Made by a program: the position numbers and the translations under genes
DNA from: an uncultured Methanosarcinales archaeon
GTDB taxonomy: Archaea > Nanobdellota > Nanobdellia > Woesearchaeales > DSVV01
Reading direction: 5' to 3'
Assembly (NCBI GenBank): GCA_964453185.1
Contig: CAYVNN010000002.1
Location: forward strand, 55,843-119,842
Length of the DNA: 64,000 bases
Notes under the pieces: generated by a model
Seen by the model: only the letters and a program-made list of their open reading frames with translations
What the model was told of the DNA's origin: nothing
Database searches by the model: none
In this document: positions 4,918-52,734 of the stretch, one piece after another
How the letters are laid out: each line of letters opens with the position of its first letter
How positions within the stretch are numbered: the first letter of the stretch is position 1

Positions 4918-4959
4918 AAAAATAAGTTAACATCAATTGTTTAAAAAAGTTACTAAAAT

Positions 4960-5060
4960 AATGCCACCGCCTTGGCTCACTATTATAAATAATTTACAAT
5001 AGCGTCAGAATAAGATACGTACATAAAATAAATTTATAATGCCAGAGCCGCTGTGGCATT
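4960..5060. repeat. structured inverted-repeat element, copy A (ATAATGCCACCGCCTTGGCTCACTAT ... AATGCCAGAGCCGCTGTGGCATTAT)
   Basis: Terminal 10-bp stem ATAATGCCAC/GTGGCATTAT plus inner stem GGCTC/GAGCC. It shares the core with the copies at 17652, 23767, 28321, 43741 and 46133. It lies 3' of the minus-strand gene 5084..5956. Confidence 0.75.
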
Positions 5061-5083
5061 ATTAAAAAAATAAAATAAAAGAA

Positions 5084-17570: not shown

Positions 17571-17651
17571 AATATATCCCTCCTTAATTATAAGTATATA
17601 CTTAATATACCTCTTTATATAATTTGTGGTAAAAATAACAATACTAGCATT

Positions 17652-17753
17652 AAAACCAGCGCCTTGAGTCACTATCTTATTTCTTCATAACTACGCACTA
17701 AAATATGTTGCGTTAATGAAAATTCCTCATAATGCCAGACTCGCTCTGGTTTT
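17652..17753. repeat. structured inverted-repeat element, copy B (CATTAAAACCAGCGCCTTGAGTCACTAT ... AATGCCAGACTCGCTCTGGTTTTAATG)
   Basis: The terminal stem is changed on both arms (AAAACCAG/CTGGTTTT) and the inner stem is changed on both arms (GAGTC/GACTC) relative to copy A. The core CGCCTTG..CACTAT / AATGCCAGA..CGC is retained. Confidence 0.75.
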
Positions 17754-17774
17754 AATGATTCATTATTGACTTTA

Positions 17775-20394: not shown

Positions 20395-23300
20395 TTACGA
20401 AGCCATTGAAGCAAACTGACCCAATGGTACATACTCAAATTGTACCTTTGTGTAATCAGGTAAAACAGTTCCTTCAACAGTATCTCTTTTTCTGACGTAA
20501 AATCCTTGTGAATCTTTTTCATCACACTGTCCCATTACATCATCATCTTCCCATTCAATTGTACAAAATTCTTTAAAATTACCCATATAATCTTTATAAT
20601 AAAGAAATATTTCATCATCTTCATACTTGGTCCAGATAAATCCAGTCCAAACTTCAACCTCATCTGCTCCTTCAATTAAATAATCTGAATTAATAACTGA
20701 ATATGCTAATATTTCATAATTAAAACTCATTAATTTCCCATCCTCTACCACAACATAATAACTAAATGCAGGATTATTATCAATATAAATCCATCTTTCA
20801 GAATATTCTTCTGATGTTGGAATTGTTCCTTCATAAACTGTTTCTGTTTGATTATTCGTGTAAATAAAAATCTTTAATTTCTTTGAATCATCAATACTAA
20901 TTATTAATTTAGTTCCTGATGTGTCTAAATCAATTGTTTCAGAAAAATCTTTTGTTTCACCATTAATTGTAAAACTTCCTTGTACTAAAAAGTTGTCCTC
21001 ATTTGTTTCTGATTTTAATTCTCCACTTTGCACAAGATTAAGCTCTTGAACTTTTTTATAATATGTTTCAACTAACTGAACATATAATCTAACCTGTTCA
21101 TAGTCGTCGTCATACTCACACCAATACCTTTTATCCCCTATACAATCTTGACTATCACAAAATACACCAACATATTCTCCATCTCTAATTCCACAAACAC
21201 CACCATAATATGTTGCTAACAAGTATTCTCTATTTAATTCAGGATCTTCTGAATCAAAAGGAATATTTTCATTATTTAATAAATCATACATTCTCCTTAC
21301 ACCAAACCTAATGTTTGTATCTGGATCAAATAAATCATAATCAACTATTCCCAATTCTGCAGCAATAACTGCAGCATCCTCTTCTGTTATCTGCATTAAT
21401 CCATTTGTTTCACCAAGAGGAGAAGATAATCCCACTGTTGTTGGATCATTCTTAGAACCTGCTGCAATCATTGCAATAACTAATTGTGGATCCATACCAT
21501 ACCTATCAGACCACTCTGAGATACTATTTGGACTTGAAGCATAATAAATAGTATAAATATCACTAACTAATTCATCTGGTTTTCCAGTATAAGATTCTTC
21601 TGATTTTGAATATGATGTTTCCGCATAACCTGCTGCAGTATCTGACTCAATCACCTTAACAGATGTGTCTTCAACAATTTTATAATCATACCTTGCTTTA
21701 ACAAAGAAATACTTTGTAGATATTGGTGTATTTCCTAATAGCTTATGTTCATCAACAATATCTAATCTACAATTGTATGAAACAAAATCTTCAATATCTT
21801 TGTAATGATTGGTGTTTCTTGAAGTGTCTAAATAATATGCATTATATCCATCTAACTCTTCTTGACATTTTAATAATAAGCATGCTCTCATTGTATCATC
21901 TGTAACTGCACCTTCATCTTCACATGCTCTATAGAAAGCAGTTTCATATTCTACATTACTACTTACACATCTATCCTCTGTATATTCTTTAAAATTAGTA
22001 TCTGAACAAGTATCAAGATCAAGTTCCATTGAATCTGGAATTATAACAACAATCTCTTTTATCTCTTCAATCATTCCATCCCAGTTTGTGTCAGCATCTA
22101 ATGTAATTCCTAATCTTGGTTTAACCTGATATGTTGAATCAATTCCTGTTAATGCACTATCTGGACCTATACCTAATCTAATTGGACCATTTGAATATCT
22201 TGCAACAGGATCTTTATCTTCCACTTGATACTGATCTAATAAATCAACACCATCTTTTAATGCAGAATTTAATCTATCTCTACTTGTAAAATATCTTTTA
22301 ACATAACCAATTGTTTCAAAATTAAACTTTGATTCAAATGTAACAGCATGTGAACCAGGACTTAATTTATTTTGAGGAATAGTACAATCAATTTCTTCCT
22401 GCTGCATATCATAAACTTCCATTGTTGCTGGATAAACTTCACCATAAACTTTACTTGTACCTTTTCCAGCATAACATGTTGTATTAATTTGCACCATATC
22501 ATCCAATGTTCTTGCCATTAATATTGCAAACACTGTAACTCTTTCATCTTCATAGAACTTTTCCTTTGAAGCCATAACATCTTCAATATAAACACCAAGC
22601 TGTTCTTCTTCATTCTCCTCAACCTGTCCAACATAATAGGTCGATGTGAGTTGTTTCTTTCTTATTTCCCAAATATCTCCAAACCTTGAAAATGCACCCC
22701 ATGTTGATGTAAATATTTGAGAACCACCTTCAACAAACTTATCCTTTAATACTAGAAATGCATCCCATCTTTCATAATCAGCTGTATCTAATTCTAAATC
22801 AGTAAAACCATACATTTGTCCCATACCATATGAAAGTATGATAAAGACCCACCACATAATAATTAAGAATCTTGATAACCTAATATACCATAACTTTGCT
22901 TCACTTCCTCTATAAACTGCATAGTAAATCCATGTTAACATAATAAATCCATTTGCTACAAACAAACGAATAAAATCAATAGATGCAATCATACTACTTG
23001 ATGCAACCATCCATGGAACAATAACCTCTATACAAAAACATACCAACATAATACGATACGTTTTTCCATTTCTCTCACTAGGATGAAAAATAAATAAGAT
23101 AGGCACAAGAATCATCCAAAATAAATTAAGAAAAATCCTATTTTTAATAGACAACCTTGATCCAATAACAACTGCATGATAAATACAAGCAAAAACAAAG
23201 AACCAAAATATACTAGAATTAGTTCTTCTTTCATCTTCATCTGCTCCACCTTTGAACAGATTAATGATTCCTTTACCACCATAATAAAAAGGAATAGATA

Positions 23301-23739
23301 AACCACGTGTAACAGCATTATGTGTTAAGAATTTACCAAAGCCTTTTGCTCTTTGCCATAATAAACTAGTTAATTGCTTTTTTCTATCTAACTCATCCAT
23401 TCCTTTAGCATGTCTTAATGCTTGAATCTTTGCAGTTAAATCAGAAAGATTAGCTTTATTTTCATTATGAGAATCTTTAAAATCTTTCCAAGGTTGTTGA
23501 AAAGTAGGCTTTACTGCATGTTCTTTCACATGAGGTAAGCCCAAATCTTTAGCCTTAGTCCAATTAGAATGAGCCATATCTACGGCTTCTGTTTTAGCAG
23601 CACCCCATGCCTTACCTGCTCCTGACTTAGTCTTACTCCAAGCAGCACTACTTACAGCTTTAGCTCCTGACTTAGTCTTACTCCAGGCAGCACTACCTAC
23701 AGCTTTAGCTCCTGCCTTAAATCCAGCCCATGATACCAT
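20395..23739 (-). CDS. giant (about 1114 aa) multi-TM protein with a large ectodomain containing an SLT-like (lytic transglycosylase) segment
   Basis: Start at the ATG at 23739 (MVSWAGFKAG), preceded by GAGGT. The longer ORF merely translates repeat copy C. Tandem AKAV(G/S)SAAWSKTKSG repeats are followed by about 6 TM helices. The ectodomain contains IAMIAAGSKNDPTTVGLSSPLGETNGLMQI, which resembles the SLT catalytic region but has Gly where the catalytic Glu is expected. Confidence 0.5.
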   Translation of the reverse strand: MVSWAGFKAGAKAVGSAAWSKTKSGAKAVSSAAWSKTKSGAGKAWGAAKTEAVDMAHSNWTKAKDLGLPHVKEHAVKPTFQQPWKDFKDSHNENKANLSDLTAKIQALRHAKGMDELDRKKQLTSLLWQRAKGFGKFLTHNAVTRGLSIPFYYGGKGIINLFKGGADEDERRTNSSIFWFFVFACIYHAVVIGSRLSIKNRIFLNLFWMILVPILFIFHPSERNGKTYRIMLVCFCIEVIVPWMVASSSMIASIDFIRLFVANGFIMLTWIYYAVYRGSEAKLWYIRLSRFLIIMWWVFIILSYGMGQMYGFTDLELDTADYERWDAFLVLKDKFVEGGSQIFTSTWGAFSRFGDIWEIRKKQLTSTYYVGQVEENEEEQLGVYIEDVMASKEKFYEDERVTVFAILMARTLDDMVQINTTCYAGKGTSKVYGEVYPATMEVYDMQQEEIDCTIPQNKLSPGSHAVTFESKFNFETIGYVKRYFTSRDRLNSALKDGVDLLDQYQVEDKDPVARYSNGPIRLGIGPDSALTGIDSTYQVKPRLGITLDADTNWDGMIEEIKEIVVIIPDSMELDLDTCSDTNFKEYTEDRCVSSNVEYETAFYRACEDEGAVTDDTMRACLLLKCQEELDGYNAYYLDTSRNTNHYKDIEDFVSYNCRLDIVDEHKLLGNTPISTKYFFVKARYDYKIVEDTSVKVIESDTAAGYAETSYSKSEESYTGKPDELVSDIYTIYYASSPNSISEWSDRYGMDPQLVIAMIAAGSKNDPTTVGLSSPLGETNGLMQITEEDAAVIAAELGIVDYDLFDPDTNIRFGVRRMYDLLNNENIPFDSEDPELNREYLLATYYGGVCGIRDGEYVGVFCDSQDCIGDKRYWCEYDDDYEQVRLYVQLVETYYKKVQELNLVQSGELKSETNEDNFLVQGSFTINGETKDFSETIDLDTSGTKLIISIDDSKKLKIFIYTNNQTETVYEGTIPTSEEYSERWIYIDNNPAFSYYVVVEDGKLMSFNYEILAYSVINSDYLIEGADEVEVWTGFIWTKYEDDEIFLYYKDYMGNFKEFCTIEWEDDDVMGQCDEKDSQGFYVRKRDTVEGTVLPDYTKVQFEYVPLGQFASMAS

Positions 23740-23766
23740 TATTAACCTCTTTTTTACAGCTATAAT

Positions 23767-23899
23767 AATGCCACCGCCTTGACTCACTATCTACTATATA
23801 GCGAAGGCGCTAAAAGTCTTTATACGTACAGCAGTGACTTAGTAGCATGCAATGCTACTACCTTCCCTCTACACATCGTGCCAGAGTCGCCGTGGCATT
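23767..23899. repeat. structured inverted-repeat element, copy C
   Basis: AATGCCACCGCCTTGACTCACTAT ... TGCCAGAGTCGCCGTGGCATT. Inner stem GACTC/GAGTC. The internal module TATAGCGAAGGCGCTAAAAGTCTTTATACGTACAG is shared with copy G. Confidence 0.75.
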
Positions 23900-24008
23900 A
23901 TTAACCTCTTTTTTAGTTTTACAACTACCTCAACTTAAATTCTAGAACTTCTTATATATAATATTTATGCATTTATGTATATAATAATTAAAACAAAAAA
24001 AGAAAATC

Positions 24009-27327: not shown

Positions 27328-27347
27328 ACATTGACATATACAATAGT

Positions 27348-27368
27348 ACCACCGCCTTGGCTCACCAT
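27348..27368. repeat. solo 5' half of the structured element (ACCACCGCCTTGGCTCACCAT), 21 nt after the pelA stop
   Basis: Matches the 5' core of copies A-G. No 3' partner within 100 nt. Confidence 0.6.
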
Positions 27369-27418
27369 TTACTTTACATACCATACTTTTATATATACTA
27401 ACTATTTACTTACTATTT

Positions 27419-28306: not shown

Positions 28307-28320
28307 TTCTCAAATACAAT

Positions 28321-28476
28321 AATGCCACCGCCTTGGCTCATTATCCTATCACAACATAGTATAGCGACAGGATATAGCAAAAGCAATTTTTGCTTTCTGC
28401 TTATTACGAAAAGCTTGCTTTGAGTATACGGTTTGTACATTATACATACACATTGAGTCAGAGCCGCAGTGGCATT
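28321..28476. repeat. structured inverted-repeat element, copy E (longest, 156 nt)
   Basis: AATGCCACCGCCTTGGCTCATTAT ... TCAGAGCCGCAGTGGCATTAT. Begins 15 nt after the stop of 27419..28306. Confidence 0.75.
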
Positions 28477-28565
28477 ATCTAGTTCTAACAATATATACAG
28501 TAATATACAAAAAACACACTTCTTCAGGGAAAACTTTAAAAATTAAAAAAAATTCAAGTATTCTA

Positions 28566-33531: not shown

Positions 33532-35520
33532 ATGAACTATGCTATTTTTATACCAATATTCATTGTATTGGGATTGTTATTTGCAGGTTATCTAACTATG
33601 CAGATAAATAGAGAAAAAAGAGGAAATAAGAAAATGATCGAAATTTCCGATGCTATTAAAGAAGGTGCAATGGCTTTCTTAAATAGAGAATATAAAGCTT
33701 TAATTGTTTATGCAATTATTGTAACAATTATTCTTGGAATATTCTTAAATATTCCAACAGCAATTGCATTTGTATGCGGTGCATTCTTATCTGGTTTAGC
33801 TGGATATATTGGAATGAGAATTGCAACATCTGCAAATGTAAGAACAGCAAATGCTGCTCAAACAGGATTAGGAAATGCATTAAAGATTGCATTTTCATCT
33901 GGAGCAGTTATGGGTCTATGTGTAGTAAGCTTAGGTTTACTAGGAATCTTCTTATTATATGCACAATTTCAAGACGTATCAATTTTATTTGGATTTAGTT
34001 TTGGTGCATCATCAATTGCATTGTTCGCAAGAGTTGGAGGTGGAATTTTTACAAAAGCAGCAGATGTTGGTGCTGACTTAGTAGGAAAAGTTGAAGCAGG
34101 TATTCCTGAGGACGATCCAAGAAACCCAGCAGTTATCGCTGATAACGTGGGAGATAATGTTGGAGATGTAGCAGGAATGGGCGCAGACTTGTTTGAAAGT
34201 TATGTTGGAAGTATTATTGCTGCTATGGCAATAGGAGTTGTACTTTATGGAATGGATGGATTATTACTACCATTATTAATTGCAGCATTTGGTATTGGTG
34301 CTTCTATCATTGGTAACTTCTTTGTTAAAGCTAAAGAAGATGGATCAAATATTCAAAGCGCATTAAAATACGGATTATATGTTGCAAGTGCACTTGCAAT
34401 CTTGTGTATGTATTGGTTAACAAGAACATTATTACCACTAGCAGACAGTTTTAATGTTTTCTTAGCACTTGTAGCTGGACTTATTGCAGGTATTTTAATT
34501 GGCTTATTGACAGAGTATTATACATCTGACAAATATGCACCAGTTAAAAAAATCGCAGAAAGTTCAAAAACAGGAAGTGCAACAAACATAATTCAAGGAT
34601 TAGCAGTTGGTTATGAAAGTACAGCATTACCTATTTTAGTAATTGCAATTGCAATCTATATTGCATATAATTTTGCAGGGCTTTACGGAATTGCATTAAG
34701 TGCAGTTGGTATGTTGTCTACTTTAGGAATTTCATTAGCAATTGATGCTTATGGTCCAGTAGCAGACAACGCAGGCGGTATTTCAGAAATGGCTGGACTT
34801 GGTGCACATGTTAGAAAAAGAACAGATATGTTAGATTCAGCAGGTAATACAACAGCAGCAATTGGAAAAGGTTTTGCAATTGGTTCAGCTGCATTAACCG
34901 CATTAGCATTGTTCTCAGCATTTACACAGACAGCTAACCTGTCATCAATTGACATAATGAATCCAATGGTTATAATTGGTTTATTACTAGGTGGAATGTT
35001 ACCATTCTTATTTTCATCAATGAGCATGCAAGCAGTAGGAAGAGCAGCATTCTCAATGATTGAAGAAGTAAGAAGACAATTCAAAAACATCAAAGGATTA
35101 ATGGAAGGTAAAGCAAAAGCAGATTACAAAAAATGTGTTGATATTTCAACAGCAGCTGCATTAAAAGAAATGATAATGCCAGGAGTATTAGCAATCGCAG
35201 CACCATTAATTGTTGGATTTGTTTTAGGACCAATGGGACTAGGAGGAATGTTGGCTGGATCACTAGTTTGTGGAGTAGTATTTGCAATTTCAATGGCTAA
35301 TTCAGGTGGAGCATGGGACAATGCAAAGAAATACATTGAAGCAGGACATTATGGTGGAAAGGGAAGTGATGCACATAAAGCAGCGGTTGTCGGCGACACA
35401 GTAGGTGACCCAAAAAAAGATACAAGTTCTCCGTCAATCAACATATTAATCAAGTTGATGACAATAATATCTTTAGTCTTCTTACCACTAATCCTAAAGT
35501 ACGGAGGACTTTTGGTATAA
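33532..35520 (+). CDS. hppA: membrane-bound proton/sodium-translocating pyrophosphatase
   Basis: [40 protein letters not shown] and the C-terminal [14 protein letters not shown] are diagnostic V-PPase motifs. 662 aa, about 16 TM helices. Confidence 0.9.
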
Positions 35521-36573
35521 AATTTCTTTTTTTATTTTCTTTCTTAATTCTTGCCACAAAGGTTCTACTTGATTCCATAATTTATCTTTATTCTCTAAAA
35601 TAAATTGCATTTTCCTAATTTTTTCACTATGTTTACTTAATGGCAACATTTTTTTAATTAAATTGTGGGTATCTTTTTTTCTATTAAGTGTAACATTATA
35701 GATATTAAAATTAAATTGTCCAGAAGGAGATCTGTCACCGTTCTTATTTTCTAAACGAAATAATGGATGAAATCTTTTTGATTTTAATTTATCTTTAATC
35801 TGTTCCAATATCCTTTTATCTCCTGTCCTTAATCTAAAAACATATCTAAAATGCTTATCATGACTTTTATTTATATTCCAATTAGATTCACAATCTGCAT
35901 ATGCTGTTAAAAATTGGTAAAATAATTCATTATTTTCTAAAATCCAAGAAGGGATTTTATTAGGTTTTTCGACGAGAAAATCAAATGACTCATGTAAATC
36001 AACATAAATAAACCATTCATCATTTCTATCCTTATGTCGAGAATAATATTTCCTAATTTCTCCATATTTCTTAAATGAATCATTCAATAGATCAATTTGA
36101 GCATTATGTGTCGTACTAGTCTGTATTCTAATAGATTTTCTTGCCCGTTTTGCATAAAAATCTCCTGCTCTTAATCCCAATAAAAATGCTTTTTTGTTAA
36201 GATCACCACAAAATGGTTTTTTAAATTTTTTAGTTAATGCCTGAGAAACAGTTTTTCTTTTTATTCCATAATTTTCTAACTTTTTTCTAACAGTTCTACC
36301 AAATTTAATACCAAATTTCTTTGCAATCTCTCTTGAACTTAATCTTTTATTCCAATATAGATCTTCCAAAACAGTTTTTGGAATATGAATTTTCTTTCTA
36401 TAAGCAGGTCTTCTCTTAATATCAAACTTACATAACCAATAGTGTATGTTTGAACCATTACAACCAAATTTCTTTCCAATCTGATTTAATGATAGTTTTT
36501 TGTCTATGTAAAGCTCTTTCAATTTTTCTTTAGTAAATTTTAATCCTTTTTTCATTTTAATCATTTCACTCAA
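35494..36573 (-). CDS. free-standing homing-endonuclease-like protein: two NUMOD1-type HTH repeats + LAGLIDADG domain
   Basis: Repeats [20 protein letters not shown] and [20 protein letters not shown] (NUMOD1-like). LAGLIDADG-like [14 protein letters not shown] and [13 protein letters not shown]. Its 3' end overlaps the 3' end of hppA by 27 nt on the opposite strand. Confidence 0.55.
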
Positions 36574-36710
36574 AGAACATAGATGATTAAAATAATAGAA
36601 AAATACAAGGATTAATAAAACTTATGATTAGAAAGATACATCCGGACAAACTACCAATAAAATCAGAATATTTCCGGAATTTACTTTAAACCCTTATTTT
36701 TTATTTCTTT

Positions 36711-36756
36711 TTATTTACCACCAAAAAGTAATGTCAAAACAAAACATTTATAAATG
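36711..36756 (+). promoter_or_regulatory. conserved upstream element + BRE/TATA (TTATTTACCACCAAAAAGTAATGTCAAAACAAAACATTTATAAATG) for the SLT gene
   Basis: About 88% identical to 45361..45406, upstream of the cyclase gene. TTTATAA TATA box at 36747-36754, roughly 40 nt before the ATG. Confidence 0.5.
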
Positions 36757-36791
36757 AAATTCTATTACCTTACTCAATCGAGGGACAATAT

Positions 36792-38159
36792 ATGAACAGA
36801 AGAACATTATTAGGATTATTAGGAGGAGCTGCATTAAGCTTAGCTGTACCAAGAATGGGCCTAGGTTCTGATCCACAAGATTTCACAATCAATTATGGAA
36901 CATTTGGTTTACATGACAGACAAACAGCTTTCTCATTATGTGATATGATTCAAGCAGAAGGTTCTGATTTTGATGATATAAAAGTTATTGAATGGGAACA
37001 AGGAAGTGAAAAAAGATACTCTGTCGCAATAGATGTAACTGGAACATTTACAGATGTTAGAGACAGAACAAATAATGACGAAGAATCATTAGCACAATTA
37101 ATTGACATGCACAATCCAGAAGGACATGACTTAAGTTTTTTACCTAGTTCTAGATATGATGGAAGAGACGTATACAAAGATGGAAGAGAAATAGTTAGTG
37201 ATTTACAACCAGTACCAACAAGACCACCAACAGGAAGAGTTCTTTACACAGATTTTAGAGATCCAGAATTCGAAAGACAAGTAGAACAAAGATTAACAAA
37301 CATTAGACCAGGTGGATCAAGACATGAAAAAATTACAAAAGGTATCAAAAGAGGATGGAAATATAAAGCATTAATCAGAGATACTGTTATTGCAAAAGGA
37401 CTTGATCCAGAATATGCTGATTTATTTTTCGCATTAATGATTCAAGAATCACTAGGAAATACAAGAGCAAGATCAAGAGCAGGTGCTGCAGGATTATTTC
37501 AAATCATGCCTGGCACAGGAAAAAAGGATCTTGGAATGACTATGAACCAATTCGTAGATTTAAGATATTCAATCAGAACATCAATAGAAAAAGGAATTCA
37601 ATATTTAGAAAAACCATGCCTTACACAAGCACAAGGAGATATAAGAATCGCTCTTGCTGGATATAATGGTGGCCCATATGGACTTGGCGATAAAATAAAA
37701 GATTTTAGAAGAAGAGGAAAATCAATATCATACAATAGCATAATGGCTGGAAGAAATAGTGAAAATAGTGGATACGCACCAGGAATTTATGCAATTCAAG
37801 CATATGTTACAGAACTAAGTTTACCTGATGAAAATGAAGTTGACTTCAGAAAAACTTGGGAAATAGCTACTATAACTCCAGGAAGTAGAGGATTAAAAAT
37901 GAGACTACCAGATGGAACAGAAGTTAATTTTACAGACAGAGCAGGAACAACAAATCTAGACAGATTAGCACAATCATACAATGCTCATGTCAAAAATGAA
38001 ACAGGTTTTGACATGAATACATCATATTTTAATGGAACAATTGGAAGAGAATTTAAAGACATGAATGCCCATGTTAAAAAAGATGGCACATTAGTTTCAG
38101 GAGTACCATATGTAATTTGGGTTCCTAAACCAGATGCTATTCAACAATTAACTAGATAA
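36792..38159 (+). CDS. Tat-secreted lytic transglycosylase (SLT domain) protein
   Basis: Tat-like signal MNRRTLLGLLGGAALSLAVP. ALMIQESLGNTRARSRAGAAGLFQIMPGTG is the SLT catalytic ES...GLxQ signature. The catalytic domain also carries GYNGGPYGL. Confidence 0.75.
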   Translation: MNRRTLLGLLGGAALSLAVPRMGLGSDPQDFTINYGTFGLHDRQTAFSLCDMIQAEGSDFDDIKVIEWEQGSEKRYSVAIDVTGTFTDVRDRTNNDEESLAQLIDMHNPEGHDLSFLPSSRYDGRDVYKDGREIVSDLQPVPTRPPTGRVLYTDFRDPEFERQVEQRLTNIRPGGSRHEKITKGIKRGWKYKALIRDTVIAKGLDPEYADLFFALMIQESLGNTRARSRAGAAGLFQIMPGTGKKDLGMTMNQFVDLRYSIRTSIEKGIQYLEKPCLTQAQGDIRIALAGYNGGPYGLGDKIKDFRRRGKSISYNSIMAGRNSENSGYAPGIYAIQAYVTELSLPDENEVDFRKTWEIATITPGSRGLKMRLPDGTEVNFTDRAGTTNLDRLAQSYNAHVKNETGFDMNTSYFNGTIGREFKDMNAHVKKDGTLVSGVPYVIWVPKPDAIQQLTR

Positions 38160-43740: not shown

Positions 43741-43847
43741 TTAACACCACCACCTTGACTCTGTATTGGATAATCCACAAGATCGCACTAAAAGTCGCGT
43801 TGCGTTATTCTAACTTTACTAAGAGCTAGAGTCGCTGTTGGCGTTAA
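43741..43847. repeat. structured inverted-repeat element, copy F
   Basis: TTAACACCACCACCTTGACTCTGTAT ... CTAGAGTCGCTGTTGGCGTTAA. Begins 3 nt after the stop of 42653..43738. The terminal stem pairs better when read from the minus strand (G-U instead of A-C). Confidence 0.65.
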
Positions 43848-43859
43848 TTTAAAGAAATC

Positions 43860-45175: not shown

Positions 45176-45360
45176 TTTATATCAATCCTCCAAGATTTGT
45201 TTTTTGATTATCAACTCTTTTTGTCATATCAATAAGTATAACCGCCAGAGATATAAAACTACCCAATTAAAATCCGGTCAAATCTAAAAAAGAAGGCAAA
45301 TTAATCTAAATAAGTAGCAGAAATAACAAATTAAACTAACACTTGCAACAATCACAAATA

Positions 45361-45406
45361 TTATTTACCACTTAAAAGTAACGTAAAAAACAAAACATTT
45401 ATAACT
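45361..45406 (+). promoter_or_regulatory. conserved upstream element + BRE/TATA (TTATTTACCACTTAAAAGTAACGTAAAAAACAAAACATTTATAACT) for the cyclase gene
   Basis: Paralogous to 36711..36756. The TATA box lies about 22 nt before the ATG at 45428, which implies a leaderless transcript. Confidence 0.5.
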
Positions 45407-45427: not shown

Positions 45428-46120
45428 ATGAACACTAAAACAGATGAAAATACTAAGACAAAAGTCGTTATGTTTGTAGATATTACTAATTATTCTAAAA
45501 AAACATCAAATATAAGCAAACAAGACCTAATCGAATTACATGACATATTTGATGGCTTCTGTATACCTAATTTTGAAGCATTTACAGGCAGAATCATCAA
45601 GAAAATAGGAGATGCATTCTTAGTAACCTTTGAGAATCCAACAGACGCAGTAATGTGCGGAATTGAATTACAGAAATCATTTCACAATCACAATAAAAAA
45701 ATAAGAAGAACAAGACCTAAAAATCAAATCAGAGTTAGAGTCGCACTCCACATGGGAGAAGTTACATATAGAAAAGGAGATATCTATGGTGACACAGTTA
45801 ACACTACAGCTCGTCTAGAAGCCTTATGTAAACCAGGACAAGTAGTATTTAGTGGATCAGTATATTCTGCAATGGAAAGAAACGGAATAGGTATTGTCCA
45901 TTTAGGTTTAAGAAAATTAAAAGGAATGAAATATCCAGTACAAGCATTTAGAATCAGAACCAAAGTAGACGACAGAATCATCAAGATTAAGAAAAGAAAG
46001 AAATCATATACAAAATTTAAACAAAGAATCAGTGCCAGTATATTATTACTTATTTCACTAATAGCTGGAGCAGCTTCTGTTGCTATTATTCTATATTATC
46101 TATTTAGTACAGTTTTATAA
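45428..46120 (+). CDS. class III nucleotidyl (adenylate/guanylate-type) cyclase with a C-terminal TM anchor
   Basis: VVMFVDITNYS (metal-binding Asp), IGDAFLVTF, GDTVNTTARLE and a C-terminal ILLLISLIAGAASVAIILYYLF helix. Confidence 0.7.
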   Translation: MNTKTDENTKTKVVMFVDITNYSKKTSNISKQDLIELHDIFDGFCIPNFEAFTGRIIKKIGDAFLVTFENPTDAVMCGIELQKSFHNHNKKIRRTRPKNQIRVRVALHMGEVTYRKGDIYGDTVNTTARLEALCKPGQVVFSGSVYSAMERNGIGIVHLGLRKLKGMKYPVQAFRIRTKVDDRIIKIKKRKKSYTKFKQRISASILLLISLIAGAASVAIILYYLFSTVL

Positions 46121-46132
46121 GCAAATAATTTG

Positions 46133-46242
46133 GCATTTGTACTAGCACCTTGACTCACTATTAAATAATACAGCGAAAGCGCTAAAAGTCTTATACGTAC
46201 AGAAAAACATACATTGTATCAGAGTCGTCCTAGTACAAATGC
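46133..46242. repeat. structured inverted-repeat element, copy G
   Basis: GCATTTGTACTAGCACCTTGACTCACTAT ... TATCAGAGTCGTCCTAGTACAAATGC. The terminal stem is a perfect 13-bp helix with a sequence unrelated to the other copies. Begins 13 nt after the cyclase stop. Confidence 0.75.
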
Positions 46243-46325
46243 AATTTATAACCAAGGCAGCAGCATTACTACATTAGTAGATAATATAGGAAAAATTAAT
46301 AAACTTTGTATAATTATTTACATTA

Positions 46326-47351
46326 ATGAAGTTTAAATCAGACAAAGAATCAAAACCAATCAAACTTGATCTAAAAGATAAAAGAATTCTAAAATTACTT
46401 GACTTAAATTCTAAACAAAGTTATTCTGCAATTGCAAAAAAAGTTGGATTATCTAAAGAAAGTATTAGATATAGAATAAAACAACTAGAAGACAAAGGAG
46501 TAATACAAGGATACAGACTTGTAGTTGATATGCAGAAATTAGGATTCATTGTTAATCATATTTTTATGACACTAAGCAAACCAGACCTAAAGATTGAAGC
46601 AGATTACTTAGATAAACTAATCAAACTACCCTTTGTCAGAGCAATAATTAAATTTAATGGAGATTATGATTATGAAATTGCAATGGTTGCAAAGAATGTT
46701 GAAGAGATTGATAATAATCTAAACACATTACTTGAAGATGTAAGTCAATTCATAAAAAAACAAGAATTATTTATTGTTGTTAAATATTACGTAAAAAAAG
46801 GATTACCAAATAGTTTTTTACCAGAATCTCAAGCAGGATTTAAGAAAGTAACAAATGAGACGACAAAAGAACCAAATATTGATGAAAAAGATTTAAAGAT
46901 AATTGATGCAATGAAAGGACAAGCAAATAAACCAATCTATCAAATTGCAGAAGAAACAGGATATTCTTCAGAAGTTGTTTCTTACAGACTTAAAAAGATG
47001 GAAAAATCTGGCTTTATATCTAATTATACAATTGCACTTAATTATTATGCATTTAATTATCAAGTCTATGTAATATTACTTAATGTCCATAGTTTACATG
47101 GTGAAACTGAACAAAAACTAGCTAGTTTCTTAGAAAATGATAATAATGTTATTTGGGCAGTTAAAACAATTGGTAAATATAATGTTATTGCATATGTCTG
47201 CACAAAAAGCATTAATGAATTACATGAAACCATAGATAAAATAAGAAGAAACTTTGGAGATAACCTTCAAGATCACAAAACATTAATTGCTTATGAAAAC
47301 AATAAGTTTACTTATGTACCTGATGTTGCACTAAGTGAAGAAGCAGAGTAA
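46326..47351 (+). CDS. tandem (double) Lrp/AsnC-family transcriptional regulator
   Basis: Two HTH_AsnC-like segments (KDKRILKLLDLNSKQSYSAIAKKVGLSKESIRYRIKQLEDKGVIQGY and DLKIIDAMKGQANKPIYQIAEETGYSSEVVSYRLKKMEKSGFI), each followed by a RAM-like domain. Confidence 0.65.
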   Translation: MKFKSDKESKPIKLDLKDKRILKLLDLNSKQSYSAIAKKVGLSKESIRYRIKQLEDKGVIQGYRLVVDMQKLGFIVNHIFMTLSKPDLKIEADYLDKLIKLPFVRAIIKFNGDYDYEIAMVAKNVEEIDNNLNTLLEDVSQFIKKQELFIVVKYYVKKGLPNSFLPESQAGFKKVTNETTKEPNIDEKDLKIIDAMKGQANKPIYQIAEETGYSSEVVSYRLKKMEKSGFISNYTIALNYYAFNYQVYVILLNVHSLHGETEQKLASFLENDNNVIWAVKTIGKYNVIAYVCTKSINELHETIDKIRRNFGDNLQDHKTLIAYENNKFTYVPDVALSEEAE

Positions 47352-47358
47352 TCATTAT

Positions 47359-47379
47359 CACCACTGCCTTGGTTCATTA
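47359..47379. repeat. solo 5' half of the structured element (ACCACTGCCTTGGTTCATTAT), 8 nt after the Lrp gene stop
   Basis: Matches the 5' core with 2 substitutions; no 3' partner. Confidence 0.5.
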
Positions 47380-47421
47380 TTCCAAAAACTTTAAAAACCA
47401 GTAAACTAAGAATCTTATACA

Positions 47422-47786: not shown

Positions 47787-48111
47787 ATTGTAGGGAAGTA
47801 CTTAACTATCGGTGTAAACTGAGGAAAGTCCGTCCACCGTGAAAGACCAGTCTTGGAAGGGACATGGAGAAATTCATGGCAACCACTCAGAAACGAAACC
47901 ACTTGTACTGGGAATGATAGAGTGAAGCAAATGGCGACATTTGTTAGTATCCTCTTGACTATCTTTACAAGAAAGGATGAAACGGTGAGCCCTGGTTGGT
48001 GCAAGGCAGTAACTTTATGTTACATCAGTCCGCTAAGTTAAATGTTAAGGGGTCTGTTTGCATTCAAGGTGCATAGACTCAACAGAAGACGGCTTACCTC
48101 TTCTCTACAAT
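47787..48111 (+). ncRNA. rnpB: RNase P RNA (archaeal type A-like)
   Basis: GAGGAAAGTCCG (P4 5' strand / CR-I) near the 5' end and CAACAGAAGACGGCTTACC (CR-V / P4 3' strand) near the 3' end. P1 pairing of ATTGTAGGGAAG (47787-47798) with CTTCTCTACAAT (48100-48111). Length about 325 nt. Confidence 0.85.
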
Positions 48112-48400: not shown

Positions 48401-49741
48401 ATGAAACAAAATAAAACTGCAGAATTCATTAAAAATCCAAAGAAATCTTTCTACAAACTAGCTTTGCCTATGTTTGTTGCTTTAATTGTTCAAACATTAT
48501 ACAATATCACAGACACTGCTTTTGTTGGTAGGTTAGGAGCAGAATCAATTGCTGCATTAACTTTTGCATTTCCATTCTTTTTTGTATTCATAGCAGTCAA
48601 TGCAGGAATCAATATTGGAATGGGTTCAAAGATATCTAGATTATTAGGAAAGAAAAAGAAAATAGAAGCAGAAAACACAGCAATGCATGGTTTGTTCATG
48701 TCATTATTAGCTGCATTAATAATATTTATTATATCTATATTTTCATTAAGAACCATATTTTCAATGTTTGGTGCAGAAGGAGTTGTATTAGAATTAGCAG
48801 TAAGTTATATGACAATTATATTATTGGGAATATTCTTAATGTTTCCTGCATTTACATTTGGAACAATCTTTTCTTCACAAGGAGATACAACAACTCCAAT
48901 GAAAATACAAATCATTGCACTAGTCACAAACATAATATTAGATCCAATCTTTATTTATGTATTAGGATATGGTGTTAAAGGAGCAGCAATTGCAACAGTG
49001 ATTGCATTTTCAGTTGGAGTAATGATTGGATTATATTATATTATTAAAAAATCTTATTTGAAAATTCATATTAGTTCTTTTAAATTTTCTTTTGATATTA
49101 TTAAAGACATATTATATGTAGGGGTTCCTGCAAGTTTAACAACCTTAATGATTGCAGTATATATTATGATAATGAACAAATTCATGGCTTACTATGGAAC
49201 AGATTATATTGCTGCAATGGGAATTGCTACAAGATTAGAAAGTGTTGCAATTATGCCAATAATGGCTGCAGGAATGGCACTTGTTACTTTAGTTGGAATG
49301 TTCCACGGAGCTAAGAAATATAAATTAATGAAAGAGATAATATGGTATGGAACAAAAGTAACTGCATTTGCAACTGCAATAATAGGAATAGTTACATTTG
49401 CTATTCCTGAATTACTTCTTAGAATATTCACACCAGATTCTAATTTAATTAATATTGGAATTGGTTATTTAAGAATTAATGTCTTTACATATCCACTTAT
49501 GGCAATTATTGTTCTTATTAGTAGATCTATACAAGGAATGGGATATGGAATGCCTGCATTGTTTATCTATGCATTAAGGTTTTTTATTTTAGTAATACCT
49601 TTTGCTTATGTGTTTGTTTATGTAATGAAATTAAGTTATTTATCAATTGCATTAGCAATGGTTTTAGGAGCAGTAGTTGCAAGTATAGTTGCAATAGTTT
49701 GGTTAAATGTTAAGGTTGGAGAGTGTGAGAATAATTGTTAA
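48401..49741 (+). CDS. MATE-family efflux transporter
   Basis: 12 TM helices. N-terminal LALPMFVALIVQTLYNITDTAFVGRLG is the MATE signature. Confidence 0.75.
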   Translation: MKQNKTAEFIKNPKKSFYKLALPMFVALIVQTLYNITDTAFVGRLGAESIAALTFAFPFFFVFIAVNAGINIGMGSKISRLLGKKKKIEAENTAMHGLFMSLLAALIIFIISIFSLRTIFSMFGAEGVVLELAVSYMTIILLGIFLMFPAFTFGTIFSSQGDTTTPMKIQIIALVTNIILDPIFIYVLGYGVKGAAIATVIAFSVGVMIGLYYIIKKSYLKIHISSFKFSFDIIKDILYVGVPASLTTLMIAVYIMIMNKFMAYYGTDYIAAMGIATRLESVAIMPIMAAGMALVTLVGMFHGAKKYKLMKEIIWYGTKVTAFATAIIGIVTFAIPELLLRIFTPDSNLINIGIGYLRINVFTYPLMAIIVLISRSIQGMGYGMPALFIYALRFFILVIPFAYVFVYVMKLSYLSIALAMVLGAVVASIVAIVWLNVKVGECENNC

Positions 49742-51019: not shown

Positions 51020-51739
51020 ATGATATATTCTCAACATAAAGATATGGCAGACTATTGGAAAACAATTATAAGAGAAGGAAGAGATGCTTTTAGAACATAT
51101 GTTTCTGATCCTGCTCTATTTGAAAGATTAGATACATTAGATGAAAATTCAAGAATCTTAGATGCAGGTTGTGGAGAAGGCTATGTTTCAAGGAGATTAA
51201 CAAAACAAGGACATGAAGTTATTGGTATTGATTTATCTGAACCATTAATTGAACATGCAAGAGAACTCGCAACAACAGAAACATATCAAGTTTGTGATGT
51301 TCTTACTTTACCATTTGATGAACAAACATTTGATGTAGTCGTAGCAAACTTCTTATTGATGGAATTTGAACACCCAGAGTTAGCAATACAAAGGCTTGCC
51401 AAAGTTCTCAGACATGGTGGAAGATTTATTTTTCAGATACTAAATCCAAGAATGAATACTTCTCTTTCAGGTGTAATGAAAGGAGAAGAAGATAGATATC
51501 ATGAAACCCAGAGACTTGAAGAAAGATTTGTTGTTGATGGAACAGTATCACCAAGAGCAGCTGTATATTTCCATCATCCTTTTGAAAGATATGAACAAGC
51601 CTTAGCTGAACATGGATTTAGAAGAATATACCGGGCCATCCCTGAACCAATTGCTGAAACCCCAACTGATCATGCCATGATTAAAACGCTAAAACAACCA
51701 TGGTTTGTTTTAATGGATTATGAAAAGGTTCAATCATAA
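51020..51739 (+). CDS. class I SAM-dependent methyltransferase
   Basis: Motif I ILDAGCGEGYVSRRL, with an acidic residue after beta2 (IDLSE). Confidence 0.65.
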   Translation: MIYSQHKDMADYWKTIIREGRDAFRTYVSDPALFERLDTLDENSRILDAGCGEGYVSRRLTKQGHEVIGIDLSEPLIEHARELATTETYQVCDVLTLPFDEQTFDVVVANFLLMEFEHPELAIQRLAKVLRHGGRFIFQILNPRMNTSLSGVMKGEEDRYHETQRLEERFVVDGTVSPRAAVYFHHPFERYEQALAEHGFRRIYRAIPEPIAETPTDHAMIKTLKQPWFVLMDYEKVQS

Positions 51740-52734
51740 GAAAGTAATTTCTCCCTCTCTAACTTTTTCAAAGGATAAGGATCATAAATTAAATCATTCT
51801 CAAACATCACTATGAATTCTACATTCTTAATTATGTCATTAAACTCAATTCTTAACTTTGATATTTCTTTTTGTAATTCTTCTTGAGATTCAACTTCTAT
51901 TGTTATCTCAAAATTCCATTTTCCTACTGTCTCTATGGCGAGGACCATTCTTGGATTTGAATAAGCATAAGAGAAAAGACTGCTTCTTACTTTCTCTTCC
52001 ATATTCTGTAAATTAAATAACAACCTATAACTTTGCATACCATAATTCTGGGATCTAATGTAAGTAGTGTGTGCTTGAATGATTCCTCTTTTTTCTAAAT
52101 GTTTAATTCTTAACGAAATTGTGCTAGCTGGTTTTTTGATAATCTGGGCAAGTTTTATTATACTCATACGGGCATTGTTTGACATTAGTGACAAGATTGT
52201 AGAATCTAACTCATCTAATTCTTCTATATCTGGTTTTTTTCCAAAGTAAGGTGGTTGGAATGATTTAGGTATATTTCCTGTTAAGTAATCTCTTTTATTT
52301 TGTCTTAATTCTGTTCTTATGGTTACACTATTGTCAACTAAATAATTTCCATATTTTGTAAGAATTTGATAATAAATTGTATTAAATTCATAAACACTTT
52401 TTGCCATAATCCCAAAGACTATATCAAATTTCCCTCCGATTGTAGCAATCCAGTAAAGTTCAGGAATACTACCTAGGTATTCAATCATTTCATTCTTTAA
52501 TTTCTCATCAACATTTTGAAACCTACTGTAAACACCAAATCCAGTATATCCCAATTTAGCGAAATTTACTAAAGTTGTATATCTTTCTATTATCCCTCTC
52601 TTTTCAAGATTTTTAATTCTATAAATAACAGTCTCTTTTGATAATCTTACTTTCTTCCCTATCTCTTGAAATGTTGCCCTGGCATTAAGATCCAGTTCTG
52701 CTAATATCTTTCTATCCTTAATATCTAACTGCAT
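51730..52734 (-). CDS. tandem (double) Lrp/AsnC-family regulator, paralog of 46326..47351
   Basis: Start at the ATG at 52734 (MQLDIKDRKILAELDLNARATFQEIGKKVRLSKETVIYRIKNLEKRGII), with a second HTH_AsnC in the C-terminal half. The 5' extension of the track ORF overlaps the divergent gene and lacks features. Confidence 0.6.
   Translation of the reverse strand: MQLDIKDRKILAELDLNARATFQEIGKKVRLSKETVIYRIKNLEKRGIIERYTTLVNFAKLGYTGFGVYSRFQNVDEKLKNEMIEYLGSIPELYWIATIGGKFDIVFGIMAKSVYEFNTIYYQILTKYGNYLVDNSVTIRTELRQNKRDYLTGNIPKSFQPPYFGKKPDIEELDELDSTILSLMSNNARMSIIKLAQIIKKPASTISLRIKHLEKRGIIQAHTTYIRSQNYGMQSYRLLFNLQNMEEKVRSSLFSYAYSNPRMVLAIETVGKWNFEITIEVESQEELQKEISKLRIEFNDIIKNVEFIVMFENDLIYDPYPLKKLEREKLLSYD

What the first reader, a model, noticed from the sequence alone, without database searches (positions are those of the whole stretch)
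36711..36756. 46-nt conserved upstream element shared by the Tat-secreted lytic transglycosylase gene and the membrane nucleotidyl cyclase gene
TTATTTACCACCAAAAAGTAATGTCAAAA-CAAAACATTTATAAATG (36711-36756) versus TTATTTACCACTTAAAAGTAACGTAAAAAACAAAACATTTATAACT (45361-45406). They share about 88% identity over 46 nt. The match ends in a BRE/TATA-like AAAACATTTATAA, correctly spaced for the downstream ATGs (leaderless for the cyclase, a short leader with GAGGG for the SLT gene). The 25 nt upstream of BRE/TATA (TTATTTACCAC..AAAAGTAAYGT) are conserved beyond what a promoter needs. That suggests a shared transcription-factor binding site and co-regulation of a secreted murein-degrading enzyme with a cNMP-producing signalling enzyme.
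Basis: seen in the sequence. Interest (0 to 1): 0.6.

Follow-up and report, generated by a model that had tools for sequence, protein, structure and literature searches.

The report
Shared regulatory box, two archaeal promoters
Two genes of an uncultivated DPANN archaeon, one for a secreted cell-wall-cutting enzyme and one for a membrane cyclase, carry the same 22-base box at the same distance upstream of otherwise standard promoters; the box recurs at that distance in a second archaeal lineage, so it is most likely the docking site of an unidentified gene regulator, which is real but a familiar kind of feature.

Summary
36711-36756 and 45361-45406 align at about 40 of 46 positions with one gap, the best match between any two intergenic regions of the window.

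The 46 nt has two layers:
- **3' part:** AAACATTTATAA(A/C) is this genome's generic BRE/TATA consensus, seen at most of about 40 promoters.
- **5' part:** the 22-nt box TTATTTACCAC-N4-AAGTAAY is found at only these two promoters in about 82 kb of this genome. It starts 36 and 37 nt before the TATA box.

The same box, at the same 36-nt offset, precedes a membrane/lipoprotein operon in another Nanoarchaeia lineage (MAG SMAG_U8117 and a relative at 78% protein identity). There the spacer and TATA differ, and the only change inside the box lies in N4.

It is not a dispersed repeat, an ORF, a structured RNA or an att site. The best reading is the binding site of a sequence-specific regulator just upstream of BRE/TATA, which would co-regulate the SLT-domain protein and the class III cyclase.

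The regulator, the sign of regulation and the regulon are not established. Cyclase homologues in other Nanoarchaeia lack the box. This is a new member of a known kind, of modest interest.

The parts
36711..36732 (+). Site A upstream box TTATTTACCAC-CAAA-AAGTAAT. This is about -66 to -45 from the TSS, whose position is inferred.
   Evidence: There are no other copies in the window with two or fewer mismatches. The same box occurs in L072 and L142.
36742..36754 (+). Site A core promoter AAACATTTATAAA (BRE plus TATA; TATA box at 36747-36754).
   Evidence: It has the best score (17/17) against the window's promoter consensus. The TATA box starts 36 nt after the start of the upstream box.
36780..36784 (+). 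GAGGG, a Shine-Dalgarno-like sequence in the short leader of the SLT gene.
36792..38159 (+). Gene for a 455-aa protein with a twin-arginine-type signal peptide and an SLT (lytic transglycosylase) domain. It is monocistronic, because the next gene is convergent.
45361..45382 (+). Site B upstream box TTATTTACCAC-TTAA-AAGTAAC.
   Evidence: It is identical over 23 nt to the box in L072.
45393..45405 (+). Site B core promoter AAACATTTATAAC (TATA box at 45398-45404).
   Evidence: score 16/17. The TATA box starts 37 nt after the start of the upstream box, and the consensus starts 35 nt before the ATG, so the mRNA is leaderless-type.
45428..46120 (+). Gene for a 230-aa class III nucleotidyl cyclase with a C-terminal transmembrane helix.
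36640..36650 (+). Weak second shared box ATCCGGACAAA, 71 nt upstream of box A. Its partner ATCCGGTCAAA lies at 45272-45282, 89 nt upstream of box B.
   Evidence: These are the only two exact copies in the window, but the spacing is not fixed and the post-hoc significance is only about 0.05. Its membership of the element is uncertain.

Best explanation
The specific part of the match is a 22-bp bipartite cis-regulatory box, TTATTTACCAC-N4-AAGTAAY. It sits a fixed 36-37 nt upstream of the TATA box and ends about 9 nt upstream of the BRE, at two otherwise standard archaeal promoters.

It is most likely the binding site of one sequence-specific DNA-binding regulator. That regulator would place the secreted SLT-domain protein and the membrane-anchored class III cyclase under common control.

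**Sign of regulation.** By position, upstream of the BRE, the regulator would more probably act as an activator that helps TBP/TFB recruitment. I put this at roughly 55:45 over a repressor.

**Candidate binders.** The box is not a palindrome, so it would suit a protein with two non-identical HTH units in one chain. Three such proteins are encoded nearby: the tandem Lrp/AsnC proteins at 46326-47351 and 51730-52734, and the double-HTH protein at 35494-36564.

**Shown:** the sequence, its uniqueness, its fixed spacing and its conservation across lineages.
**Inferred:** protein binding, co-regulation, the sign of regulation and the identity of the factor.
For: 1. The box occurs at only 2 of about 55 gene upstream regions (about 40 with a clear TATA box) in the window, and nowhere else in the window plus 18 kb of flanks at two or fewer mismatches. 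There is no excess of degenerate copies over shuffles.
2. The offset from box start to TATA start is 36 nt (A), 37 nt (B), 36 nt (L072) and 36 nt (L142).
3. A whole-collection scan of 185,579 species genomes with TTATTTACCACNNAAAAGTAA gave 11 hits. Ten show no similarity to the element beyond the scanned pattern: nine bacterial and one in a Thermoplasmataceae archaeon. The eleventh is in a Candidatus Nanoarchaeia MAG, where it is intergenic, correctly oriented and followed by GAAAGCTTTAAATA, then GAGGT and an ATG.
4. Of 93 distinct contexts recovered by all the pattern scans, only that one has a TATA match at offset 34-39.
5. Between the window and that lineage nothing else is alignable. The spacer and TATA differ, yet 23 nt are identical to site B.
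6. In L142, a relative at 78% protein identity, the only changes inside the box fall in the central N4, AA to TT.
7. No ORF, Rfam family or stable fold covers the box. Fold z-scores range from +0.9 to -1.8.
8. All four downstream units encode envelope proteins: a secreted SLT protein, a membrane-anchored cyclase, and a 2-TM protein with a lipoprotein.
9. Published work places archaeal activator sites immediately upstream of BRE/TATA. Examples are Ptr2, EarA, the ara-box and TrmBL1 at upstream TGMs (PMC5512572, PMC4706686).
Against: - No dyad or direct-repeat symmetry exists beyond TTAC...GTAA, which is unusual for dimeric archaeal regulators.
- Only two sites are known in this genome and one per genome in the other lineage, so a regulon is not demonstrated.
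- Both core promoters are the closest to consensus in the window. Activator-dependent archaeal promoters usually have weak BRE/TATA elements (PMC5512572).
- A and B are also similar through the spacer (GT-CAAAAC against GTAAAAAAC). A copied promoter cassette would also produce that.
- Cyclase homologues at 45-54% identity in other Nanoarchaeia lack the box.
- In L072 a second TATA-like TTATAAATA abuts the box, so the relevant TATA there is not certain.
- No transcription start sites, expression data or binding data exist.
Confidence: 0.62

Rival explanations
1. Copied promoter cassette. The whole unit of about 45 nt (box, spacer, BRE/TATA) was duplicated or gene-converted from one promoter to the other within this genome. 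The similarity would then reflect common descent of a strong promoter, not a dedicated regulator.
For: A-B identity runs without a break through the spacer and the core promoter, with 18 identical nt in AAAACAAAACATTTATAA. Both are the most consensus-like promoters in the window. The two copies lie only 8.65 kb apart, and there are no others in 82 kb.
Against: The box alone recurs in an unrelated genomic context in another lineage. There the spacer and TATA differ but the offset is the same, which descent within this genome cannot explain. The similarity starts abruptly at TTATTT and does not extend into the leader or the gene. This rival does not exclude the box also being a binding site.
Confidence: 0.15
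2. Extended basal-promoter element. The box would be recognised by a general factor, such as a chromatin protein or an alternative TBP/TFB, or would act through DNA shape (a central A/T tract). It would mark a promoter class rather than a signal-responsive regulon.
For: The distance to TATA is fixed. The N4 centre is A/T-rich in all four sites. Both core promoters are strong.
Against: Only 2 of about 40 promoters carry it. The flanking blocks TTATTTACCAC and AAGTAA are conserved base for base, which indicates base-specific readout. No evidence for alternative basal factors was sought or found.
Confidence: 0.1
3. Recombination or attachment-site repeats. The two direct repeats would be attL/attR-like scars bounding an 8.65-kb inserted segment.
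For: The copies are direct repeats in the same orientation, 8,650 nt apart.
Against: The enclosed genes are housekeeping ones: SLT, acetate kinase, phosphotransacetylase, DHH, Nre, a THUMP methyltransferase and HAD. None encodes an integrase or recombinase. The segment shows no compositional break. In the other lineage's contig of about 15 kb there is only one copy. Fixed phasing with TATA boxes is not expected of att sites. Scans of IMG/VR found no related sequence.
Confidence: 0.04
4. Chance similarity of two A/T-rich promoters, or a member of a dispersed repeat or structured-RNA family.
For: The genome has 30% G+C and the 3' third of the match is generic consensus. Without anchoring, the 5' box alone is only borderline against an all-against-all null: the motif-only score is about 18-20 against null maxima of 18-27.
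Against: The pair is the top of 780 TATA-anchored promoter pairs. There is an independent recurrence in another lineage, with 0 of 92 control contexts showing a TATA box at that offset. There are no extra copies, exact or degenerate. There is no Rfam hit at E up to 5 and no stable fold. The real dispersed repeat of this window is a different sequence.
Confidence: 0.04

Closest known systems
Ptr2 (Lrp-family) upstream activating sites at the Methanocaldococcus jannaschii rb2/fdxA promoters
   Same: A site of about 20 bp lies just upstream of BRE/TATA, and it is bound by an Lrp-family protein that recruits TBP (as summarised in PMC5512572). Lrp-family genes lie next to the box-bearing genes here.
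   Different: Ptr2 sites are dyad-symmetric and occur in pairs (from my own knowledge). This box is single and asymmetric. The candidate proteins here are fused tandem Lrp units, and no binding has been shown.
Thermococcales glycolytic motif (TGM, TATCAC-N5-GTGATA) bound by TrmBL1/Tgr
   Same: It is a short bipartite motif that defines a set of promoters. Its effect depends on its position relative to BRE/TATA: upstream sites activate (PMC4706686).
   Different: The TGM is a palindrome with dozens of genomic sites and a known regulator. The box here has a different sequence and no symmetry, with only 2 sites seen in 82 kb.
EarA sites of the fla promoter (Methanococcus) and the ara-box of Sulfolobus
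   Same: [quoted passage not shown]
   Different: Those are 6-bp repeats or a different box, and they are coupled to weak BRE elements. Here the BRE/TATA is at consensus strength and the box ends about 9 nt upstream of the BRE.
SLT-domain extracellular proteins of Pacearchaeota/Woesearchaeota
   Same: The downstream gene of site A belongs to the known phenomenon of murein-type lytic transglycosylase domains in small-genome DPANN archaea (PMC8204110).
   Different: That work concerns the proteins, which reach up to 3,000 aa. Nothing is reported on their promoters or regulation. This protein is only 455 aa, and no full-length homologue was found.

Membership tests
Archaeal core promoter (BRE/TATA) | An A/T-rich TATA box of about 8 bp, preceded by a purine-rich BRE and matching the genome's own consensus. 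| tested here: met
   AAACATTTATAA(A/C) scores 17 and 16 out of 17 against the consensus derived from about 40 upstream regions.
Archaeal core promoter (BRE/TATA) | TATA box about 25-30 nt upstream of the transcription start. | not testable with these tools
   No TSS data exist. Indirectly, the consensus-to-ATG distance is 35 nt for the cyclase, like the 29-39 nt of the leaderless majority. It is 50 nt for the SLT gene, with GAGGG.
Transcription-factor binding site upstream of BRE (UAS/operator) | Fixed position relative to the core promoter. | tested here: met
   The offset from box start to TATA start is 36, 37, 36 and 36 nt in A, B, L072 and L142.
Transcription-factor binding site upstream of BRE (UAS/operator) | Conservation across lineages while neighbouring non-coding sequence diverges. 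| tested here: met
   23 nt are identical between site B and L072, with nothing else alignable. Changes in L142 are confined to N4.
Transcription-factor binding site upstream of BRE (UAS/operator) | Restricted to promoters and present at several of them (a regulon). | tested here: inconclusive
   The box is promoter-only, but just 2 sites occur in about 82 kb. The source genome is not in the scannable collections.
Transcription-factor binding site upstream of BRE (UAS/operator) | Dyad or direct-repeat symmetry typical of dimeric HTH regulators. | tested here: not met
   Only the 4-bp arms TTAC...GTAA are complementary (read from the sequence).
Transcription-factor binding site upstream of BRE (UAS/operator) | Demonstrated protein binding and an effect on transcription. 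| not testable with these tools
   This needs EMSA or footprinting, in vitro transcription, or metatranscriptomes.
Dispersed repeat / MITE | Many copies, including non-promoter locations, with terminal inverted repeats. | tested here: not met
   There are two copies only and no degenerate excess over shuffles. No TIRs are present.
att sites of an integrated element | Direct repeats bounding a segment that carries an integrase and has foreign composition. | tested here: not met
   The enclosed genes are housekeeping and include no recombinase. G+C is flat.
Structured cis-regulatory RNA or sRNA | Match to a known family, or a stable conserved fold. | tested here: not met
   There are no Rfam matches at E up to 5. 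Fold z-scores are +0.86, +0.35, -0.28 and -1.83.

The most novel reading that the evidence does not exclude
The box is the operator of a lineage-wide Nanoarchaeia 'cell-envelope / host-contact' regulon. A fused tandem-Lrp pseudo-dimer, encoded directly downstream of the cyclase, would read the asymmetric box with its two different HTH units and respond to the cyclic nucleotide made by the box-controlled cyclase. This would form a feedback loop that switches on the secreted murein-cleaving enzyme when the archaeon engages a bacterial host.
Probability: 0.1. Interest if true: 0.65.

Novelty: new member of a known kind. Interest (0 to 1): 0.35.

Why it matters
Almost nothing is known about gene regulation in DPANN archaea, which are uncultivated, have few regulators and are thought to live on other cells. 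A conserved, position-locked box linking a secreted peptidoglycan-cleaving enzyme to a cyclic-nucleotide cyclase gives a concrete and testable handle on how such an organism might control contact with a bacterial host. A 22-bp probe and three candidate HTH proteins are available for that test.

In kind, however, it is an ordinary archaeal upstream regulatory site. At present it rests on two promoters in one genome and one promoter (with its orthologue) in another lineage.

Tried and rejected
1. **Phylogenetic footprinting on the cyclase.** Homologues at 44-54% identity were fetched (P0001-P0004, P0006; loci L011-L018, L139-L141). None carries the box. Two weak leads remain:
   - L140/L141 have TTAATCACCACT one nt out of register before CAAAACATTTATAA.
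   - L016 has TTATTTACAGTAAA 10-11 nt closer to the TATA box.
2. **Footprinting on the SLT gene.** The homologue search returned only the protein itself.
3. **Defining the regulon by collection scans.** The window's own contig is in neither genome contigs nor metagenome contigs. Only 18 kb beyond the window could be added.
4. **Other A/T-rich metagenome hits** (L074, L076, L098, L100, L102, L121, L129 and others). They are bacterial or phage contexts, or lack a correctly placed gene or TATA box.
5. **Viral or mobile origin.** 44 IMG/VR hits showed no extended similarity.
6. **Hidden ORF, Rfam family or RNA fold across the box.** None was found.
7. **Origin-recognition-box idea.** The reverse strand reads GTGGTAAA, against ORB GTGGAAAC. 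I rejected it because the copies are direct, each is phased to a TATA box, and there is no skew switch.
8. **Phr-type heat-shock operator resemblance** (recalled from memory). I rejected it because the register does not fit and Phr sites overlap the TSS.
9. **Classifying the divergent neighbour 35494-36564.** Pfam gave only sub-threshold HTH hits and PDB gave nothing. The single-sequence AlphaFold model is confident only for two N-terminal HTH units, with overall pLDDT 47.6, so no fold search was run. My by-eye LAGLIDADG reading is unconfirmed.

Full report
**What the window is.** The window carries an archaeal RNase P RNA (47790-48108, 127.6 bits) and has about 30% G+C. Exact-protein look-ups place it on JGI metagenome contig Ga0118720_1000008 (289,761 bp), with identical copies in several other samples. 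Homologues of its cyclase are labelled Nanoarchaeota archaeon. It is therefore a DPANN/Nanoarchaeia genome, and archaeal promoter rules apply.

**The observation.** The two sequences are at the stated coordinates. With one 1-nt gap they agree at 39 of 44 columns up to the end of TTTATAA.
- Among all pairs of the 36 intergenic regions, in both orientations, this is the best local alignment. It scores 33, against maxima of 18-27 in 30 shuffles.
- Similarity begins abruptly at TTATTT and fades right after the TATA box.

**Two layers in the 46 nt.** I extracted the upstream regions of about 55 genes.
- *Generic layer.* Most upstream regions carry (A/C)AAAC(C/A)TTTATAAA, and for most genes this lies 29-39 nt before the start codon. 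These are leaderless-type promoters. Genes with a GGAGG-like leader show longer distances. The 3' 13 nt of both copies, AAACATTTATAA(A/C), are this generic BRE/TATA, and they are the two best matches to it in the window.
- *Specific layer.* This is the 5' 22 nt, TTATTTACCAC-CAAA-AAGTAAT at site A and TTATTTACCAC-TTAA-AAGTAAC at site B. With promoters aligned on TATA, the A-B pair is the top of 780 pairs for the 24 nt upstream of BRE. It scores 20/24 ungapped; the next pair scores 18 and the mode is 10-11.

**Is it a dispersed repeat?** No.
- TTTACCACNNAAAAGTAA occurs exactly twice in the window.
- With the 21-nt consensus there are two copies at 0 mismatches. One copy has 3 mismatches and lies inside a coding region (13466; about 0.2 expected by chance).
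- There is no excess at 4-6 mismatches over shuffles.
- Two more look-ups added about 18 kb beyond the window ends and gave no further copy.
- No ORF is shared over the box. No Rfam family matches even at E up to 5. Neither strand folds better than shuffles.

**Related sequences elsewhere.**
- All other assemblies of this population are identical in both intergenic regions, so they carry no information.
- The SLT protein has no detectable full-length homologue.
- Five cyclase homologues (44-54% identity) were fetched with their contexts. None has the box.
- Pattern scans were more useful. IMG/VR gave 44 hits without extended similarity.
- The 185,579-genome collection gave 11 hits for TTATTTACCACNNAAAAGTAA. 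Ten show no similarity to the element beyond the scanned pattern: nine bacterial and one in a Thermoplasmataceae archaeon. The eleventh lies in Candidatus Nanoarchaeia archaeon SMAG_U8117 (L072).

**The L072 site.** The box lies between a divergent NucS gene and an operon encoding a 100-aa two-helix membrane protein, a 257-aa protein and a 112-aa lipoprotein-like protein.
- The box is identical to site B over 23 nt.
- It is followed by an unrelated spacer, then GAAAGCTTTAAATA, and then GAGGT and the ATG.
- Its TATA box starts 36 nt after the box start, against 36 nt at A and 37 nt at B.
- The metagenome scan returned the same locus (L099) and otherwise bacterial or phage contexts.
- Of 93 distinct contexts from all scans, only this one has a TATA match at offset 34-39.
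- blastn and tblastn find nothing else shared between that contig and the window.

**A relative of L072.** A relative with 78% identity in the 257-aa protein (L142) keeps the box at the same offset. Its only changes inside the box are in the central four bases, TTAA to TTTT. The element is therefore a bipartite box, TTATTTACCAC-N4(A/T-rich)-AAGTAAY, phased to the core promoter.

**Mechanism.**
- *Shown:* a base-for-base conserved box that is unique to a few promoters, at a fixed distance from TATA, in two lineages that share no other alignable DNA.
- *Inferred:* it is the binding site of a sequence-specific regulator. With the TSS predicted near 36777, the box spans about -66 to -45 and ends about 9 nt upstream of the BRE.
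[quoted passage not shown] Repressors overlap the promoter or lie downstream of it (PMC5512572, PMC4706686). This favours activation. However, both core promoters are at consensus strength, which is atypical for activator-dependent promoters (PMC5512572). I therefore hold the sign only weakly.
- *Candidate binders:* the box has no dyad symmetry beyond TTAC...GTAA. That fits a protein with two different HTH units. Three tandem Lrp/AsnC genes lie within 82 kb, one directly downstream of the cyclase. The gene divergent from the SLT promoter has two confidently modelled N-terminal HTH units. None of these is linked to the box by any evidence beyond proximity.
- *Possible theme:* all box-controlled products are envelope proteins. 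This hints at a surface or host-contact theme, but it rests on only three independent promoters.

**Rivals.**
- A copied promoter cassette explains the A-B identity through the spacer. It does not explain the recurrence of the box alone in another lineage.
- An att-site reading fails. The 8.65-kb interval holds ack, pta and other housekeeping genes, with no recombinase, and its composition is flat.
- Chance and structured RNA are excluded as described above.

**Comparison with what is known.** The element works like the upstream sites of Ptr2, EarA, the ara-box or an upstream TGM. It is not a member of any of those motif families, because its sequence and its lack of symmetry differ. SLT-domain proteins in Pacearchaeota and Woesearchaeota are already described (PMC8204110), but their regulation is not.

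**Verdict.** This is a real cis element and a new member of a known kind. Its interest is modest until a binder or a regulon is shown.

Noticed in passing
window 4946-5066, 17648-17760, 23753-23905, 28314-28482, 43741-43852, 46130-46246; half copies at 27331-27376 and 47352-47385: A dispersed structured element of 112-170 nt. It has a 5' box (C/A)C(C/A)(G/C)CCTTG(G/A)CTCA and a 3' box CAGAG(C/T)CGC. These are closed by a 10-13-bp outer helix whose sequence differs between copies with compensating changes.

- All copies are on the + strand.
- All sit directly after stop codons, of genes on either strand. One lies between the cyclase gene and the tandem-Lrp gene.
- Fold z-scores are -3.6 to -5.6 in 5 of 6 copies.
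- 10 of 18 pairs show double-sided changes, there are no G-U pairs, and 0 of 500 shuffles reach the observed score.
- There is no Rfam match.
- It was not found in the 18-kb flanks or in other DPANN loci.

It is possibly a REP-/attC-like DNA hairpin or a terminator-like RNA element. It may be more novel than the finding itself.
   Followed up: partly
window 36640-36650 and 45272-45282: A second shared box, ATCCGG(A/T)CAAA. These are the only two exact copies in the window. Both are on the + strand, 71 and 89 nt upstream of the main box. The post-hoc significance is only about 0.05, and the box is absent from L072.
   Followed up: partly
window 35494-36564 (-): The gene divergent from the SLT promoter encodes a 356-aa protein. 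It has two N-terminal HTH units (sub-threshold in Pfam; pLDDT 70-87 in a single-sequence model) and an unclassifiable C-terminal part. By eye it contains LAGLIDADG-like strings, which remain unconfirmed.
   Followed up: partly
window 46326-47351 (+), 51730-52734 (-); L145 2549-3532: Three paralogous fused tandem Lrp/AsnC proteins (two HTH_AsnC units, with RAM-domain matches) lie within about 82 kb of a small genome.
   Followed up: no
window 13031-13096 and 23618-23707: There is a perfect 33-nt tandem duplication inside the intein-containing RFC-like gene 12336-14909; each unit begins with TTTACCAC, which is probably coincidence. There is also a 45-nt tandem duplication at 96% identity inside the 1,130-aa gene 20395-23787.
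   Followed up: no
window 48401-49741 (+); L147 10282-10683: Bacterial-type envelope functions occur in these archaea. There is a MurJ/MatE-family flippase near the SLT and cyclase genes. The box-bearing relative has a signal peptidase II (Peptidase_A8), next to a lipoprotein-like gene downstream of its box.
   Followed up: no
L140/L141 (upstream of 835 / 2967) and L016 2944-2990: Cyclase paralogues of another Nanoarchaeota MAG (GCA_043822325.1) have partial look-alikes of the box before a CAAAACATTTATAA-type promoter. One is TTAATCACCACT, one nt out of register. The other is TTATTTACAGTAAA, about one helical turn closer to the TATA box. They could be diverged sites or chance.
   Followed up: partly
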